A DNA stretch of 26,501 bases, taken from IMG/VR virus record IMGVR_UViG_2534682163_000012, positions 1-26,501 of that record. One strand, given 5' to 3'. This DNA comes from a virus. Its lineage: Duplodnaviria > Heunggongvirae > Uroviricota > Caudoviricetes. Positions 3,001 to 9,000 of this stretch are shown here, piece by piece. Every line of letters begins with the position of its first letter. Position 1 is the stretch's first letter. Made by a program: the position numbers.

Positions 3001-6000
3001 ATTTGGCGCTTTTTTCATTTCTGCTCTCTCCACGCGGCAATCATGTTTTTCAGTTCCTGTAGTTTTTTATCCACATCCACACGTGACACACGGTTATTTC
3101 TGAAAGTCGGGATTTCCCGCCGGAATCTGCAAATAAAGATCTCCACGTTCAGCGAACTAAGAAATGAATAGCCATCACGGATAAAATACACACGGTCAAA
3201 CATCAGTTTTTTTACCGTTACTCTGTTACCGTTCTTATCCAGATAAATAGCGCCGGGGACAATTTTAGGGTGTGCATAACCGCTGGCAGTCAAGCCAGAT
3301 AAATACGTTCTCATGATTATTTATCCCCGATTTGAATCAGTATTCGCTTTCTTTATAGCATTTAATGCATCTGTGGCATTTTCAATGGTGCACCGTAACG
3401 AAATATCAAAATGTCCAAGCATTGCCAGTAACAAACCGATATTACCCATATCAATGCGCATGGCCTTTTCGTCATAGTCCTCATTTTCTGACGCATGCCA
3501 CATCAGGCTACCAATTGACGCAACAGCCATTGATATATTGTTAGTAGCCCCATCCGCAGCGGAATAAACCTTTTTAGCAATATCATGCTCACAGTTAAAA
3601 TGCGTATTAATCAGGTACTGGTAATTGGTCATGTCAGGCATGGAACACCTCCTGACGAATACGGGCGGCGAATACAGCAACACAACCGGACGGGCAACGG
3701 CTACGCGCTTCGCGTTCCGTCCAGGCGGTGACGTGGATGATTTGAGATTCTGACGCGCCAAAGATGATAAAGCGCCAGATAAAGGCGGTTTGAGAATGTA
3801 CAAGGGTAGGGGTAGTAGCCATGTTGGCAGCCTCCTTGATTGATGGAATGTAACCACCGCAGGAGGTGAGAAGCTCGCTGGCGGTGGACTGTACAGGGTT
3901 CTCACAACTGGCAATCAAGGGAACCAGCCTGACCGAAGTCAGCCCCATACAGCCCACCATTGTATAGGTGTGCGTGTGCGCCGATACAAAAAAAGACGCG
4001 TGCGGCGTCTGTATCGCCTCGATTGTCAGCGGGGTGAGAATCCCGGCACCCGTTTTATGAGGTGCGCGGGAATCATAGCCATTTTTGCTGGTGGCGATCA
4101 ACTGGTTTTTCATACCCGCTTTATTCAGGTTGTGCGAGTCCCGCCCTTGCGGGTGTGTGGTATGATTTCTCATAGCTACCTCGATACTTTCGCTATCGTT
4201 GGTGGTCAGAGGCTGCGAAAGGACGGCAATCCTTTTCAGCCTCGTTTGCATTGAGTGATAAACACTCAGCTGGATTCCAGTATAATCACTAAGTGGAATC
4301 CACTTCAAGCGTTTTGTTTTGGTCTTTTTCGTGTATACTGGATTCCAGTAATCACAAAGGGAACCAGAAATGGAAAGAGACCATATCAATAACAAATCAC
4401 AGAAATTACAGGCTCGCGCCCCGCATGAAGTTGTTGAGGCTATGGAGCAAGTAAAAGAAACAGGCGAGAGCACTGCGCAATTTATCGTTACAGCCATGCG
4501 AGGCGAGATCAAACGCCGCCAGCGCCGTAAGGCCAAAGAATCAGAATAATCACTATCAGCGCCGTGGTGTGAGGTACTACGGCGCATTGCTTTACAGGGC
4601 AGTATCATGACCAACAACACACTATCACCAATACAAGACACGCAAACGCAAGATGATGAAATCATCCGGCAAAGGCAGTCAGAAGCCTGCGCCAGACTTG
4701 AGGAAGAACTAACCAGAACAAAAATACCACCACCAGCGCCGCGCTTAGTGCCACCAGAAAAATTTGCCCTTGAAGATTTTGTCGATAAATACCCACGGCG
4801 GCTTAAATCCGGCAAAAACCGACCGCCAGGATGAGTGCACAAAACCGAACTATGAAACGGATTATTCCGTTTCCGGGGCGTTTGTGTGTGTATAAAGAGT
4901 AAGCTATGCTCTTTTATAGCCATAATCGTTACCTCAATTAATGGTTTGGTTAGACGCCCCGCTACTGCCGCAAACAGTTCGGGGCGTTGTCGTTTACATC
5001 CTCTTACTGAGGTGTGATTTAAATTAAATTCAACTGAATCACAGGCAAAGTGTTTTTTGTGATTCTTTTTTGTGTATACTGAATCACATCTTTTGTTTAG
5101 GAGAATGCACATGGCAAAAAACACTATCAACGACAAATCAAAACAGATTTCAATTCGTATCCCACATGATGCTTTTGATGGCATGGAATCCGTAAAACTG
5201 GACGGCGAAAGCAACGCCGGATTCATAGTAACCGCCATGCGCGGGGAGATCGCCCGCCGCCAAGCAGAAGGAAGCAGTGAAAATCCTCTGATTTCTTCTC
5301 TCGATGCATTGGCGCAAGTGGAAAAAATTGGTATTAAAGCTACGGAAGAACTCGGGCAACTTATCGCCATCGCTCGTGAAGAACTACAGCGCCGCAAGGC
5401 CAAAGAATCAGAATAAAAACCACCAGCGCCGTGGTGTGGGGAATCGCGGCGGCAATCATAGGAGTAAAAGATGTTAAAATTAAAAAAACATGTACCAATG
5501 ATGGTTGCTTTAATTATCACAATCTTTCTCTTAATATCATGCTTTGAGAAAAATAGTCTTTGCTCAAACGATAAGGGCGATTTATTACGGCGTGCTTGCG
5601 ATGTAGAGTTGAAAAAAAGTTGAGCACTACCTAACCGAGACAATGCCGTAGTTCCTGTAATCACAGGATCGCTCAGGCTTTGCCCACCAGCCGCAAATAT
5701 GGCATTGTTGGCGATGCTCATGCGTTGGGGATAACGCGCAATTTGTGTTGAAGGGCCACCGTGACAGGTGGCCTTTTCTTTGCCTGTTATCCGGCAATTG
5801 TGGCGCTTCTTCACACAGTTGATATAATTCCCCTGCACTGATCCAATTTTTTCGCAGCAGGTTAATTGTTCGCAAGGGCGCTCCGGCAACGGGGCGCTTT
5901 TTGTTTTTACCCACCAGCACAATAAAAATCTTCATTTTCCATTTTTGTAAAATTTCATGCTTTCCGGACGACGGGCTATATGTCATTTTTTAGCAGAAGA

Positions 6001-9000
6001 TTTTGCCTTGCTGGTGGGTAGCTTCTCGGTTAACACGATGTACCGTATAATCAGCACCGCGTGTGGTTACTGAATACGCTCACCAAAGTAAAACTCAGGC
6101 TGATATTCACGTATCAGCCTTTTTTCTTCTTCCTCCAGTTCACGTTTTTTGCGCTTACATGCCTGTAGCGCCCTCCCCTTCTCGCTGGCACTTATCTGGT
6201 ATTGCTCTTTGCGGCGGGAAAAATCCTGTAATGCACCCCACGGGATACCATAAGCCCCCGTTTTTCTGATACCCAGTATCACATTTCTGAATACCCAGTT
6301 ACTGAAACGATGGGCGAATGTGCCTTGCGTCGTTGCTTTGCGGCTACGGGCTATTAGTTTGTAGAAACCTGACTCAGAGATAATGCTCATATTCTGATTT
6401 CCTCCTGGGGTGTAAGTTAAATTTACTCCCTTTTCATCATCATCAAGCATCTGCAACGCCGTACGCGAATTGGTCAGTTCCAGCGCAGCGCAGACATCCT
6501 TTGCAACAAACCACGGATCGCCGTTCAGATACACCACGCGAACGTTCACACTATCAAAGCGCAGAACGACCAGATCACGAAAATCACAGATTTTTTTACA
6601 TGACGTGCGTCACCCTTGCCCGTCACGGCAATATTTTTATTCATTTCTTTTTTACCTCACATACAAAAAACCCCGCATTGCACGCGGGGTATGAAAGATA
6701 TTATTAGTGGGGATTGGCTTGTTCTCGTTGTTTATCTAACCATGCTTCTACATCTCTACGGTGCCAGGTATGTCGTCGTCCAATTCTGAACGGCTGAGGA
6801 AAACCATTATTCTCATCTTTCCAGAAATTGATGAATGCACTCATTGCTCCATATCGCAAGATTTTCATTACGTCTTTAGTAAATAAAATATCTTCATTGG
6901 TATTCATTTGCTGAACCTCCTCAACCATTTACAACTCTTAAACCTTTCATACCACCGGATCTATTAATTACCCCTTTTCTCGCATCATCAAAAAAATCAC
7001 CGACCCATTGCATCATGATCTTACGCTGTTCTAGATAAATAGTTCTATTATAAATATCTCTTATTTTATCACCACTTTTATGCGCCAATGCAGCCTCGAT
7101 TACATCGGGGTTAAATCCCTCCTCATTTAAAAGCGTACTCCACATTGAACGAAAACCATGTAACGTTACAATCCCTTTGAACTTGCTGGCAGCAATTGGG
7201 GTCTTGATAGTATTCCTCCCCATAGGCGCATCTTTTGTTCTGGAGGAAAAAAACACATAACGCCCTCTTTTTATTTCCTGCATTGTTCTGAGGATACTAA
7301 TAGCCTGTGATGACAAGGGAACAACATGTTCACGATGGCATTTCATTTTATGCGCGGGGATAATCCACAAGCCAGAATCAAAATCAATCTCTGACCACTC
7401 TGCTTTAATCGCCTCACCTGGCCTGACCATTGTCAATATCTGGAATAAAAGTGCATTATGAGCTATTTGATAGGTATGAGGCACACTATCCCACCAGCTC
7501 AGAAATTCAGGCAATCTTTCAACAGGTAGTGCTGCTAATGATTTATTTTTCTTTCCTGTGAATGCAGTCTTTATCTTAAGTAATGGATTTGTTTTCAATG
7601 TTCCACAATTTACAGCATAATTCATAATTTCATTTAATCTTGATATTAATTTTTTTTGCAACGCATTCTTATCGGATACGGCATCCAGAGCATTAATAGC
7701 TACTGGTGCTGTAATTTTTTCTATACTGTACTTACCAAAGAAAGGAACAAGATATTTGTATACTTCATATTCGATATTATACAGCGTAGGTTTCCGCAAT
7801 TCAGATCCCTTTTTAAAAGCGAACCATGCATTAGCAACAGCTTCAAATGTCTGTAGATTTTTTAGTGACATCTCAATTTTACGATTTTTCTTCTCCGTCA
7901 CTGGATCAACTCCACGTGCAATCATTCGCCGAAGTTCATCACGTACTTCCCGTGCTTCCGCGAGTGAGAATTCAGGAAAACGTCCTATCGTGTATGTCTG
8001 CCGTTTCTTCGTTATCGGATGGCTATAACGGAAACGCCACACTTTCCCACCGGCTTTACTCACATTCAGCAATAAACCGAACCCATCATAAACGGCATAG
8101 TCCTTTTCACGTGGTTTCATCCCCTTAACTTCAGTCACGGTTAATGGCTTTACCGACATCTATCGCCCTCATTTTTTAGTCCGTCATGTAGTCCATTCAA
8201 GCCAATAACAAGCGATAAACTAACTCATTATCAAGCAAAGAGAGGAAACTCATAAAATCACAACTCATTGAAAAGACTATGAAACGACACCAGAACATAC
8301 AAACAGGTAAGAAATGTACCCTACATCCAAAAACTTGCTATTCTGGAATTTCGGGGGGTTCCGGTGATACTGCCATCCGCCGCTGCCCGTTCGCCTTCCC
8401 GCAGCCAGATCCCCTGGTTATTCAGTTCACGCTTCTGTTCCGGAGCAATCAGGCCGCGGCAGTGCGGACACATCAGGCGGGCCGCCTGCCCGGCAGCCAC
8501 AAAATCAGGGTTATTCCGGTAACCGGTCATGTTATCCATCACCGGCTGAAAATATTCCCCGCAGTGCGGACACGGCCAGTACCACCGGCGGCGGTCTCCC
8601 CGGTTATACAGTGACAGGATCCCCGTTGTTGGCGGTGCCTCATGTGCGCCACCACAACGCCATTTGGTGTCAGTGATATCCCGCCCCGGTGAACTCTCGA
8701 CCAGGGTCATCCCCGAGGACATAAAGGTGGTGGTACGCTTTGAGGCCAGCGTGAAGGCATCCCCTTCCCCGTCCACGTTTTCAGGGAAACGGTCATAATC
8801 CGTCAGCGCCACACGACGGTAATCCGAAGAGGAAAATACAGTGATCGACGGCCAGCCAATCTTCAGGAAGGAGCCGTCAAGAAACATTTTATCGTGGACG
8901 TTGTTGTCATTACGGGAAGGACTGAGGCGCTTGCTGACCTCCGGACTGTGGCGAAACGTCCTGGAAAGACGCGTTCTGGAATGCTCACGCGCCTTCGTCT

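What the first reader, a model, noticed from the sequence alone, without database searches (positions are those of the whole stretch)
5822..6126. Two promoter-terminator units without ORFs in the satellite: candidate small RNAs
Between the plus-strand accessory operon and the Bro-N gene there are three plus-strand intrinsic terminators within 400 bp. Unit 1: extended -10 TGaTATAAT (5821-5829) then a strong terminator (5876-5908), predicting an ~70-nt RNA with no ORF. Unit 2: TATAAT (6046-6051) then a terminator (6097-6126), predicting an ~69-nt RNA antisense to the last codons of the Bro-N gene. A 10-bp inverted repeat (5910-5919 / 6009-6018) lies between them. These could be immunity or antisense regulators, by analogy with small RNAs that control P4-type satellites.
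Basis: inference. Interest (0 to 1): 0.5.

Follow-up and report, generated by a model that had tools for sequence, protein, structure and literature searches.

The report
Candidate antisense RNA gene in PICI satellite
Of the two proposed small-RNA genes, only the first holds up: a conserved promoter-plus-terminator cassette in a phage satellite that probably makes a ~70-nt RNA antisense to a very long "leader" reading frame leading to the satellite's replication genes. The second is a hairpin inside a protein-coding gene, and the inverted repeat is a pair of Chi sites.

Summary
The sequence features are real, with small coordinate errors.

**Unit 1** is a mobile cassette: extended -10 TGATATAAT at 5820-5828, a predicted ~70-nt RNA at 5835-5908, and terminator T2 at 5874-5908.
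- It occurs in about 290-440 of 5426 E. coli genomes, always in the Bro zone of PICI satellites.
- The -10 is intact in 54/54 copies retrieved without using it.
- Terminator stems change compensatorily.
- No Rfam family or paper matches it.

**Unit 2** is not supported. Its hairpin (6097-6120) lies in the last 18 codons of Bro-N. Where that gene end occurs in other contexts, the TATAAT spacer is absent.

**The 10-bp inverted repeat** is two opposed Chi sites.

**"Without ORFs" is misleading.** The cassette lies inside a 765-codon stop-free minus-strand frame (3634-5931). That frame runs antisense through the ylcI genes, covers isrK and C4, and ends as the Icd/Kil-like gene. It resembles an extended P4 eta-type leader ORF and is conserved in Serratia, Xenorhabdus and Yersinia.

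**Best reading:** an OOP/Sar-like cis-antisense brake on translation-gated read-through. This is inferred; no expression data were available.

The parts
5754..5783 (+). T1: intrinsic terminator of the plus-strand ylcI operon (GGGCCACC-GTGACA-GGTGGCC + TTTTCTTT)
   Evidence: Fold. A C-G to G-C compensatory pair occurs in 6 of 46 variants. A T1-type terminator is the only plus terminator downstream of ylcI in PICIs that lack the RNA cassette.
5820..5828 (+). Extended -10 promoter element TGATATAAT (TATAAT = 5823-5828)
   Evidence: Only TGNTATAAT in the window. Invariant in 8 BLAST-retrieved loci. Intact in 54/54 copies retrieved with a pattern that does not include it, while the 5 nt on either side vary. 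TATAAT, TATCAT or TATTAT sits at the aligned position in diverged variants.
5835..5908 (+). Predicted ~70-74-nt RNA. The start is inferred from the -10; the end is the T2 U-tract.
   Evidence: Folds into a largely unpaired 5' half plus a terminator hairpin, dG -23.9 kcal/mol. No Rfam family at E<=10. No transcript data were available.
5853..5871 (+). Conserved core CGCAGCAGGTTAATTGTTC just upstream of T2
   Evidence: Invariant in 8 unbiased loci. Retained with few changes in variant families whose 5' parts differ in sequence and length: L082 from O104:H4, and the L083/L084 type. Unique in the window.
5874..5908 (+). T2: intrinsic terminator (12-bp stem, GCAA loop, UUUUUGUUUUU)
   Evidence: 96.6% of cells paired. 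L007-type copies have a different stem (GGCGGCUCC/GGGGCCGC) that still folds as a terminator with a U7 tail. The minus-strand side has no U-tract.
5684..5691 (-). Chi site at the left edge of the conserved 230-bp block
   Evidence: Homology to other genomes starts here.
5910..6066 (.). AT-rich spacer bounded by opposed Chi sites (5911-5918 minus, 6010-6017 plus). The spacer carries the unit-2 TATAAT at 6046-6051.
   Evidence: The spacer is present only in the 25 'window-type' loci of 81. It is absent where Bro-N abuts T1 directly.
6097..6126 (+). T3: 10-bp hairpin + TTTTTTC inside the last 18 codons of Bro-N. Possibly a back-up plus-strand terminator; not a separate gene.
   Evidence: The hairpin is nearly invariant in 16 unique Bro-N 3' ends. 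One synonymous change converts A-U to G-U, and one variant breaks a pair.
6067..6549 (-). Bro-N domain (anti-repressor-like) gene. Annotated as frameshifted, 6067-6644, in the identical RM10410 locus.
   Evidence: Pfam Bro-N 8.9e-20. PHROG anti-repressor. PGAP note.
3634..5931 (-). 765-codon stop-free frame: an eta/Ash-like leader ORF that ends as the Icd/Kil-like 62-aa gene (about 3634-3822). It covers isrK and C4 and runs antisense through T2, the RNA, T1 and all plus-strand genes.
   Evidence: 1 stop against 44 and 45 in the other minus frames. Pfam Phage_ASH at aa 621-713. The same open frame occurs in most related loci and in Serratia, Xenorhabdus and Yersinia.
4370..5623 (+). Plus-strand accessory operon: YlcI/YnfO-family genes (4370-4549 and 5072/5111-5416), a 75-aa ORF (4607-4834) and a lipoprotein-like 50-aa ORF (5471-5623)
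   Evidence: NCBIfam NF041551 at 2e-20 and 4e-18. PHROG 949 and 6522. All four ORFs share one phase relative to the minus ORF.
3877..4065 (-). The element's own P4/P1-type immunity RNAs: C4 (3877-3964) and isrK (3989-4065)
   Evidence: Rfam 75.4 and 63.3 bits, both above gathering score.
6704..8159 (-). AlpA-like HTH gene (6704-6928) and tyrosine integrase (6921-8159) of the satellite

Best explanation
**What it is.** Unit 1 is a genuine, modular small-RNA gene of a helper-embedded PICI satellite. A -35-independent extended -10 promoter (5820-5828) would start transcription near 5835. The intrinsic terminator T2 would end it near 5905-5908, giving a non-coding RNA of about 70 nt.

**Where it sits.** The gene lies on the strand opposite a very long leader reading frame. 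In simpler relatives this frame starts directly after alpA. In all relatives it runs to the Icd/Kil-like gene ahead of the replication genes. It resembles an extended version of P4 eta, whose translation is what lets transcription read through.

**Proposed mechanism (inferred).**
1. The RNA pairs perfectly with the 5'-proximal part of that minus-strand transcript.
2. Pairing blocks or cleaves the translated leader.
3. Translation and transcription uncouple, which favours Rho-dependent termination.
4. This damps leaky read-through from the int/alpA/bro side into the replication module while the satellite is quiescent.
5. Strong AlpA-driven transcription plus translation would override the brake on induction.

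**Other elements.** T1 is the terminator of the ylcI operon. T3 is a hairpin inside Bro-N that may stop residual plus-strand transcription. The inverted repeat is a Chi pair marking a recombination junction.

**Shown:** the anatomy, the conservation, the terminator covariation and the long open frame. **Inferred:** that the RNA is made, and what it does.
For: **Module and distribution**
- The 230-bp block occurs in 417-444 of 5426 E. coli genomes. 289 of them carry at least 80% of the cassette, with up to 6 copies per genome.
- It is always chromosomal and always lies between the 3' end of ylcI(+) and alpA/Bro-N(-).
- No plasmid place was found among the E. coli genome records, and there was no match in the phage collection.

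**Promoter**
- TGATATAAT is invariant while its neighbours vary.
- It is intact in 54/54 copies retrieved by a pattern that excludes it.
- A -10 hexamer persists at the aligned position in diverged variants.
- L016/L019 keep the cassette with an unrelated upstream sequence and no T1.

**Terminator**
- 94.7% of cells are paired, against 42-63% when the partners are slid.
- An alternative stem still folds as a terminator with a U-tail on the plus side only.

**No same-strand coding**
- There is no start codon in the open plus frame, the changes are mixed synonymous and non-synonymous, and one minus frame is closed in a common haplotype.

**Target geometry**
- The minus frame is stop-free for 765 codons, against 44/45 stops in the other frames.
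- It is conserved in most relatives and in three other genera in the same codon phase.
- In 25 of 81 loci the leader's ATG (SD GAGG) lies 8 nt beyond T2. There the RNA is complementary from about codon 2 onward.
- C-rich, G-poor stretches follow on the minus RNA.

**Precedent**
- P4 eta translation prevents termination, and eta is coupled to the alpA homolog (PMC10111431, citing Forti et al. 1999).
Against: - No expression data of any kind were available.
- The promoter has no recognisable -35 and was not called by the consensus scan.
- In the L083/L084 variant family there is no T1. T2 is then the only terminator of the plus operon, so the conserved part could be a 3'UTR/terminator element rather than an independent gene.
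- The cassette is present in only 13 of 76 PICIs chosen by an unrelated marker, so it is dispensable.
- In the window itself the leader frame has no ATG near T2. It has TTG at 5922 after a TGA at 5932-34, and it is separated from Bro-N by a spacer, so translation of the leader here is uncertain.
- In other classes the RNA pairs 30-90 codons inside the ORF, not at its start.
- A conserved 19-nt core is not needed for pure cis-antisense action. It hints at another constraint: a trans target, a protein partner, or the opposite-strand frame.
Confidence: 0.45

Rival explanations
1. Insulator only. T1, T2 and T3 are stacked plus-strand terminators that keep ylcI-operon transcription from running antisense into bro/alpA/int. 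The TGATATAAT is not a working promoter, or it is a weak one, and no RNA with a function of its own is made.
For: In the L083/L084 family T2 is the sole terminator after the plus operon. PICIs without the cassette manage with T1 alone. The consensus promoter scan calls nothing here. A single TGNTATAAT is expected by chance in about half of shuffles.
Against: The 9-nt extended -10 is intact in 54/54 copies retrieved independently of it, with variable flanks. A -10 is kept in diverged variants. The cassette travels without T1 or the ylcI-proximal sequence in L016/L019. About 90 nt between two terminators is better conserved than the terminator loops.
Confidence: 0.25
2. Trans-acting Hfq- or ProQ-dependent sRNA. 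Its conserved core (CGCAGCAGGUUAAUUGUUC) is a seed for helper-phage or host mRNAs, for example to tune helper development or host physiology.
For: It has sRNA-like architecture: an unpaired 5' half, an internal U-run, and a strong terminator with a long U-tail. The core is conserved across variants whose 5' parts differ, which cis-pairing does not require.
Against: No complementarity beyond the cis site in the 26.5-kb window, which includes about 18 kb of the helper prophage. The core has no match at up to 3 mismatches. Duplex scores of other sites are within the tail of the background. The host genome could not be scanned.
Confidence: 0.15
3. DNA-level element. The block would be conserved as a recombination or packaging-related module, or as a binding site for a satellite or helper protein. 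Candidates are the inverted repeats GTGGCG-CTT-CGCCAC and TTGCC-N8-GGCAA upstream of the -10. The hairpins would be incidental.
For: Block edges coincide with Chi sites. An inverted repeat between -35 and -10 is present in many copies, and in a different sequence (TGGTC/GACCA) in the L004 type.
Against: The upstream inverted repeat is degenerate in the window and in many copies. Compensatory and alternative terminator stems with a strand-specific U-tail argue for RNA-level selection. No cos or pac motif was recognised.
Confidence: 0.08
4. Unit 2 is, a second sRNA gene (TATAAT 6046-6051 to T3), antisense to the 3' end of Bro-N.
For: A perfect TATAAT lies 46 nt upstream of a strong hairpin + T6. 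The predicted 69-72-nt RNA folds well (z = -4.1).
Against: There is no TG extension and no -35 at a usable distance. The TATAAT belongs to a Chi-bounded spacer found only with the window-type arrangement. The hairpin occurs without that spacer in L159, L160, L095, L132 and L123, where Bro-N's stop abuts T1. The hairpin is coding sequence, and the available copies are too similar to test covariation.
Confidence: 0.07

Closest known systems
Lambda OOP RNA and P22 Sar RNA (short cis-antisense RNAs of temperate-phage regulatory regions)
   Same: About 70 nt. Own constitutive-looking promoter. Ends at an intrinsic terminator. Encoded opposite a regulatory operon, so it is perfectly complementary to that transcript. 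Sar likewise sits in an ant/immI-type region. This comparison rests on my own knowledge of these systems.
   Different: No sequence or structure homology: no Rfam hit at all. The presumed target is a long leader ORF rather than cII or ant. Function is untested.
P4 CI RNA / P1-P7 C4 RNA with seqA/isrK (Rfam RF01695, RF01394)
   Same: Same element type and same regulatory neighbourhood (the Bro zone). Plausibly the same end result: premature termination of the replication operon.
   Different: Those RNAs are present separately in this window at 3877-4065 on the minus strand. They are processed from the leader transcript itself and act on same-strand sites. The candidate RNA is on the opposite strand and is unrelated in sequence and fold. 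It occurs independently of C4/isrK, which are present in 5/14 cassette-bearing loci against 2/14 without the cassette.
P4 eta/kil nested genes (translation-gated read-through; Forti et al. 1999, cited in PMC10111431)
   Same: The minus-strand frame starts just after the alpA (vis) homolog in simple relatives. It contains C4/isrK (Pfam Phage_ASH). It ends as a Kil/Icd-sized protein of about 62 aa.
   Different: It is far longer (230-818 codons). It carries complete ylcI genes, and in some elements the RNA cassette, on its antisense strand. In the window it is uncoupled from alpA by Bro-N and a spacer.
Helper-embedded PICIs (Tommasini, Mageeney & Williams 2023, PMC10111431)
   Same: The satellite has the Integration/Bro/Replication zone order. 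It abuts a truncated lambdoid terminase gpA gene and carries C4/isrK in its Bro zone.
   Different: That paper does not mention YlcI genes, antisense overlap or this RNA cassette.

Membership tests
Any curated RNA family (Rfam 15), including C4, isrK, isrJ-type island sRNAs | Match to a covariance model at or near the gathering score | tested here: not met
   Permissive scan of 5500-6300 at E<=10. Only terminator-shaped sub-threshold hits were found, at most 20.6 bits against gathering scores of 37-55.
Stand-alone bacterial sRNA gene | Conserved sigma-70 promoter element at a fixed distance upstream | tested here: met
   TGATATAAT is invariant with variable flanks. It is intact in 54/54 copies retrieved independently of it. 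A -10 is kept in diverged variants.
Stand-alone bacterial sRNA gene | Intrinsic terminator maintained by selection (pairing kept through sequence change; U-tract on the RNA strand) | tested here: met
   T1 shows compensatory C-G/G-C change. T2 has an alternative stem that still folds as a terminator.
Stand-alone bacterial sRNA gene | No conserved ORF on the RNA strand | tested here: met
   No start codon in the open plus frame. Substitutions are mixed synonymous and non-synonymous.
Stand-alone bacterial sRNA gene | A discrete transcript is detected | not testable with these tools
   No RNA-seq or Northern data were reachable. A literature search by sequence found nothing.
cis-antisense regulatory RNA (OOP/Sar type) | Encoded opposite to, and overlapping, a transcribed and translated target | tested here: inconclusive
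   The overlap with a strongly selected open frame is shown. Transcription and translation of that frame are inferred from the P4 precedent, not observed.
cis-antisense regulatory RNA (OOP/Sar type) | Pairing changes target stability, translation or termination | not testable with these tools
   Needs genetics or biochemistry.
Hfq-dependent trans-acting sRNA | Conserved seed with complementary mRNA targets | tested here: inconclusive
   The core is conserved. No target was found in the window. The host genome was not searched.
P4 eta-type leader ORF | Open frame that begins next to the alpA/vis homolog, spans the immunity RNAs and ends as Kil/Icd | tested here: met
   In the window the 5' end is displaced by Bro-N plus a spacer and has only a TTG start.
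P4 eta-type leader ORF | Its translation prevents transcription termination | not testable with these tools
   Known for P4 (PMC10111431, citing Forti 1999). Untested for PICIs.
Chi (crossover hotspot instigator) site | Octamer 5'-GCTGGTGG-3' | tested here: met
The window holds 27 sites against 1.1 expected.
Helper-embedded PICI | int-alpA / Bro / primase-SSB order, integrated inside a lambdoid late gene | tested here: met
   The integrase start at 8159 is followed by a truncated gpA ATPase ORF (8321-9328) and nu1 (9325-9801). The other half of gpA lies outside the window.

The most novel reading that the evidence does not exclude
The Bro zone of these PICIs is a kilobase-scale dual-coding switch.
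- A leader ORF of 230-800 codons would matter only because it is translated, which licenses read-through from alpA into the replication genes.
- It is overlaid, wobble-on-wobble, by antisense ylcI genes and, in some lineages, by this dedicated ~70-nt antisense RNA.
- Those antisense transcripts would throttle the leader.
- The RNA cassette would then be a plug-in immunity module that moves between satellites by Chi-stimulated recombination.
Probability: 0.3. Interest if true: 0.7.

Novelty: new member of a known kind. Interest (0 to 1): 0.45.

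Why it matters
- **A new regulator class for PICIs.** How Gram-negative PICIs stay silent is poorly understood: they lack an Stl-type repressor, and only some carry C4/isrK. If the RNA is made, it adds an uncatalogued antisense regulator to a widespread family of E. coli phage satellites.
- **A directly testable switch.** The surrounding architecture is a long, strongly selected open frame that overlaps real genes in antisense and is conserved from E. coli to Serratia and Xenorhabdus. It suggests that translation-gated read-through of the P4 eta type is general in these satellites, and it gives a concrete target to test.
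- **Annotation consequences.** PGAP labels pieces of this frame 'Icd-like' or 'ash family' proteins of widely varying length. That labelling is misleading.

Tried and rejected
1. **Rfam.** The gathering-threshold scan of the window and a permissive scan of 5500-6300 found no family for either unit.
2. **Internal paralogy.** The block has no copy elsewhere in the window, and it is not a diverged isrK/C4.
3. **'Icd-like protein' annotation under the block in some genomes.** This traces to PGAP calling parts of the long minus frame. NCBIfam gives no hit for that translation.
4. **Pattern scan of one genome per species.** The only hit was a chance match in a cyanobacterial MAG. The cassette is essentially confined to E. 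coli-lineage satellites.
5. **Phage and plasmid records.** No match in the phage collection, and no plasmid place among the E. coli genome records.
6. **Literature.**
   - No paper holds the sequence.
   - Storz-lab Pas sRNAs are lambdoid-prophage genes in other contexts.
   - The EcCIMP1 PICI paper mentions no sRNA.
   - Forti 1999 is not held.
7. **Hidden small protein.** Variable sites show a weak 3-nt periodicity: 7 of 10 fall in one phase, p about 0.06. However, the changes are non-synonymous in the icd frame, the ATG5986 frame is closed by TGA in a common haplotype, and the plus frame lacks a start codon.
8. **Trans targets in the window.** None were convincing.
9. **Mutual exclusion with C4/isrK.** Not seen.
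10. **YlcI function.** No Pfam, PDB or annotated PHROG function. My reading of YlcI as ribbon-helix-helix-like remains a guess.

Full report
**Context.** The window holds the right part of a PICI-type satellite.
- On the minus strand lie SSB 249-671, primase 1201-3033, DUF4222 3015-3314, an Icd/Kil-like gene at about 3634-3822, Bro-N 6067-6549, an AlpA-like HTH gene 6704-6928 and integrase 6921-8159.
- The integrase abuts a truncated lambdoid terminase gpA ORF (8321-9328) and nu1. The rest of the window is the lambdoid prophage, with tRNAs, STnc100 and a second C4/isrK pair.
- This is the 'helper-embedded PICI' configuration described by Tommasini et al. 2023 (PMC10111431). They divide such elements into Integration, Bro, Replication and Late zones and note that C4 and isrK, relatives of P4 CI and seqA, lie inside Bro-network ORFs.
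- The satellite's own C4 (3877-3964) and isrK (3989-4065) are on the minus strand.
- A plus-strand accessory operon (4370-5623) encodes two YlcI/YnfO-family proteins.
- The finding lies in the convergent junction between that operon and Bro-N.

**Observation.**
- The three plus-strand terminator-shaped elements exist: T1 5754-5783, T2 5874-5908 and T3 6097-6126.
- The extended -10 is at 5820-5828, one base left of the stated coordinates. It is the only TGNTATAAT in the window, although a single such site is not improbable by chance.
- The second TATAAT (6046-6051) is there but has no TG and no usable -35.
- The 10-bp inverted repeat is there, but each arm is a Chi octamer. The window carries 27 Chi sites against 1.1 expected.

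**Unit 1 is a conserved, portable cassette.**
- BLAST of 5600-6200 against 5426 complete E. coli genomes finds a 230-bp block (about 5680-5909) in 417 genomes. All places are chromosomal, with up to six per genome.
- The 133-bp cassette alone is at least 80% covered in 289 genomes. It has no match in the phage collection.
- In every locus inspected it lies between the 3' end of a plus-strand ylcI gene and the 3' end of alpA or a Bro/Ant gene.
- In an alignment of eight BLAST-retrieved loci, GGTTGATATAAT and CGCAG.AGGTTAATTGTTC are invariant while the flanks vary.
- A scan of IMG/VR with a pattern anchored outside the -10 returned 54 copies, and all 54 carry TGATATAAT. The five bases on either side vary.
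- Diverged variants keep a -10 hexamer at the aligned position although their 5' RNA parts differ in sequence and length: TATAAT in an O104:H4 element, and TATCAT or TATTAT in the L083/L084 family.
- Two loci carry the cassette behind an unrelated upstream sequence, without T1.
- Terminator pairing is maintained: 94.7% of cells are paired against 42-63% for slid partners. T1 has a C-G/G-C compensatory pair, and one lineage has a different T2 stem that still folds as a terminator with a U7 tail on the plus strand only.
- The predicted RNA (5835-5908) has an unpaired 5' half and a strong terminator.
- It matches no Rfam family, and its sequence appears in no held paper.
- It has no conserved same-strand ORF.

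**The cassette is accessory.** Among 76 PICIs retrieved through the DUF4222 gene, a marker independent of the block, only 3 carry the full cassette and 10 carry the variant form. The rest have just a T1-type terminator after ylcI. Its presence is independent of C4/isrK.

**Unit 2 fails.**
- T3 lies in the last 18 codons of Bro-N and is nearly invariant in 16 distinct Bro-N 3' ends, which are too similar to test covariation.
- About 200 genomes share homology that begins exactly at the Bro-N stop codon.
- In L159, L160, L095, L132 and L123 that stop codon is followed directly by T1, with no spacer and no TATAAT.
- The TATAAT therefore belongs to a Chi-bounded spacer (5910-6066) found only in the 'window-type' arrangement, 25 of 81 loci.
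- T3 may be a back-up plus-strand terminator embedded in coding sequence. It is not the end of a conserved gene.

**What the cassette sits in.**
- The region is not ORF-free. The minus-strand frame of the Icd/Kil-like gene is stop-free for 765 codons (3634-5931). The other two minus frames have 44 and 45 stops, and the plus frames 24-36.
- The frame passes through T2, the RNA, T1, the antisense of all four plus-strand genes, isrK and C4. The isrK/C4 part is where it matches Pfam Phage_ASH.
- All four plus genes lie in the same phase relative to it, with wobble positions coinciding.
- The same open frame reaches across the cassette in about 58 of 78 cassette-bearing loci whose Icd proteins are only 45-93% identical. 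It is long in most DUF4222-selected loci too.
- In a simple relative (L085) it is an ATG-initiated 313-codon ORF with SD GGAG that starts 10 nt after alpA's stop. T1 occupies codons 6-12.
- In the 25 'alpA-adjacent' loci the ATG (SD GAGG) is 8 nt beyond T2, so the RNA is complementary from about codon 2.
- In other classes the frame starts MNTGY..., or is fused to a Bro-N fragment, and T2 lies 30-90 codons in.
- In Serratia fonticola, Xenorhabdus and Yersinia PICIs the same alpA/Bro - long ORF - antisense ylcI arrangement recurs in the same phase. The frames are 435, 230 and 272 codons, with 1 stop against 15-26 in the other minus frames for the Serratia and Xenorhabdus loci, where this was counted.
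- This is the P4 eta/kil design. In P4, eta begins upstream of the immunity region, is coupled to the alpA homolog and ends as Kil, and its translation prevents termination (PMC10111431 citing Forti et al. 1999). Here the design is stretched over a kilobase or more, with genes embedded antisense.
- The PICI paper does not mention YlcI or antisense overlap.
- The translated sequence looks like antisense junk, and its substitutions are non-synonymous. This suggests that openness, not the product, is what is selected.

**Mechanism.**
- The best-supported reading is that unit 1 makes a short cis-antisense RNA, functionally of the lambda OOP / P22 Sar kind.
- The RNA would pair with the 5'-proximal part of the leader transcript. 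It would interfere with its translation or trigger cleavage, and so favour Rho-dependent termination before icd and the replication genes.
- C-rich, G-poor stretches follow on the minus RNA.
- Everything after 'the cassette is conserved and antisense to a selected open frame' is inference.
- Caveats:
  - the cassette is dispensable;
  - in one variant family T2 is simply the operon terminator;
  - in the window the leader has only a TTG start after a stop at 5932-34;
  - the conserved 19-nt core suggests an additional constraint, such as a trans target or a protein partner.
- No trans target was found in the window.

**Verdict.** Unit 1 is a credible new sRNA gene of a known kind, uncatalogued but unproven. 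Unit 2 and the inverted repeat are explained away. The most interesting thing here is the long antisense-overlapped leader ORF in which the cassette is embedded.

Noticed in passing
window 3634-5931 (minus strand); also L161 4535-5839, L165 459-1148, L163 4607-5422, L085 1852-2793: A 765-codon stop-free frame runs antisense through the ylcI operon, the isrK and C4 RNAs and the terminators, and ends as the Icd/Kil-like gene. It has 1 stop against 44/45 in the other minus frames. It is conserved in most related E. coli PICIs and in Serratia, Xenorhabdus and Yersinia, always in the same codon phase relative to ylcI. It looks like an extended P4 eta-type leader ORF with real genes embedded antisense.
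   Followed up: partly
window, whole length; e.g. 5420, 5684, 5911 (minus), 6010 (plus): Chi (GCTGGTGG) occurs 27 times in 26.5 kb against 1.1 expected from shuffles. Within the prophage part the sites are mostly in one orientation. The edges of the conserved RNA block and of the spacer coincide with Chi sites, which suggests Chi-stimulated module exchange.
   Followed up: partly
window 8160-9801: The satellite integrase abuts a truncated lambdoid terminase large-subunit ORF (gpA ATPase domain, 8321-9328) preceded by nu1. This is the helper-embedded PICI configuration of PMC10111431. Related copies sit in terminase, portal or capsid genes, or at chromosomal sites (L002, L004, L159, L160).
   Followed up: partly
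window 3877-4065 and 23539-23727: The satellite and the helper prophage each carry a C4 + isrK pair. The C4 loop words and their matching target words differ: GUGAGAA/UUCUCAC in the satellite and ACGCCAA/UUGGCGU in the prophage. The two immunity systems therefore look hetero-specific. The prophage pair also lies inside a long ORF (22924-24087).
   Followed up: partly
window 3837-4370 versus L001 (RM10410) 7574-7771: The window is 100% identical to RM10410 across 5600-6200 but carries about 336 extra bases between icd and ylcI, which contain C4 and isrK. These RNAs are a swappable module, present in 7 of 28 related loci sampled.
   Followed up: partly
window 5798-5816: An inverted repeat lies between the -35 position and the -10 of the RNA promoter. 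It is TGTGGCG-CTT-CGCCACA in many copies, degenerate in the window, and replaced by TGGTC-ATTTC-GACCA in the L004 type. It could be an operator for a satellite or helper protein.
   Followed up: no
window 5471-5623 (plus): The last gene of the plus operon is a 50-aa ORF with a lipoprotein-like signal (…LLISC…) and no family match. It may be a small exclusion or lysis-type lipoprotein.
   Followed up: no
window 6067-6644: The Bro-N gene is annotated as frameshifted in the identical RM10410 locus. An intact 192-aa version exists in L004.
   Followed up: no
window 14272-14482, 15897-16148: STnc100 sRNA (145.8 bits) and three tRNA genes (Arg-tct, Arg-tcg, Met) lie in the lambdoid prophage. These are ordinary features of Stx-type and lambdoid prophages.
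   Followed up: no
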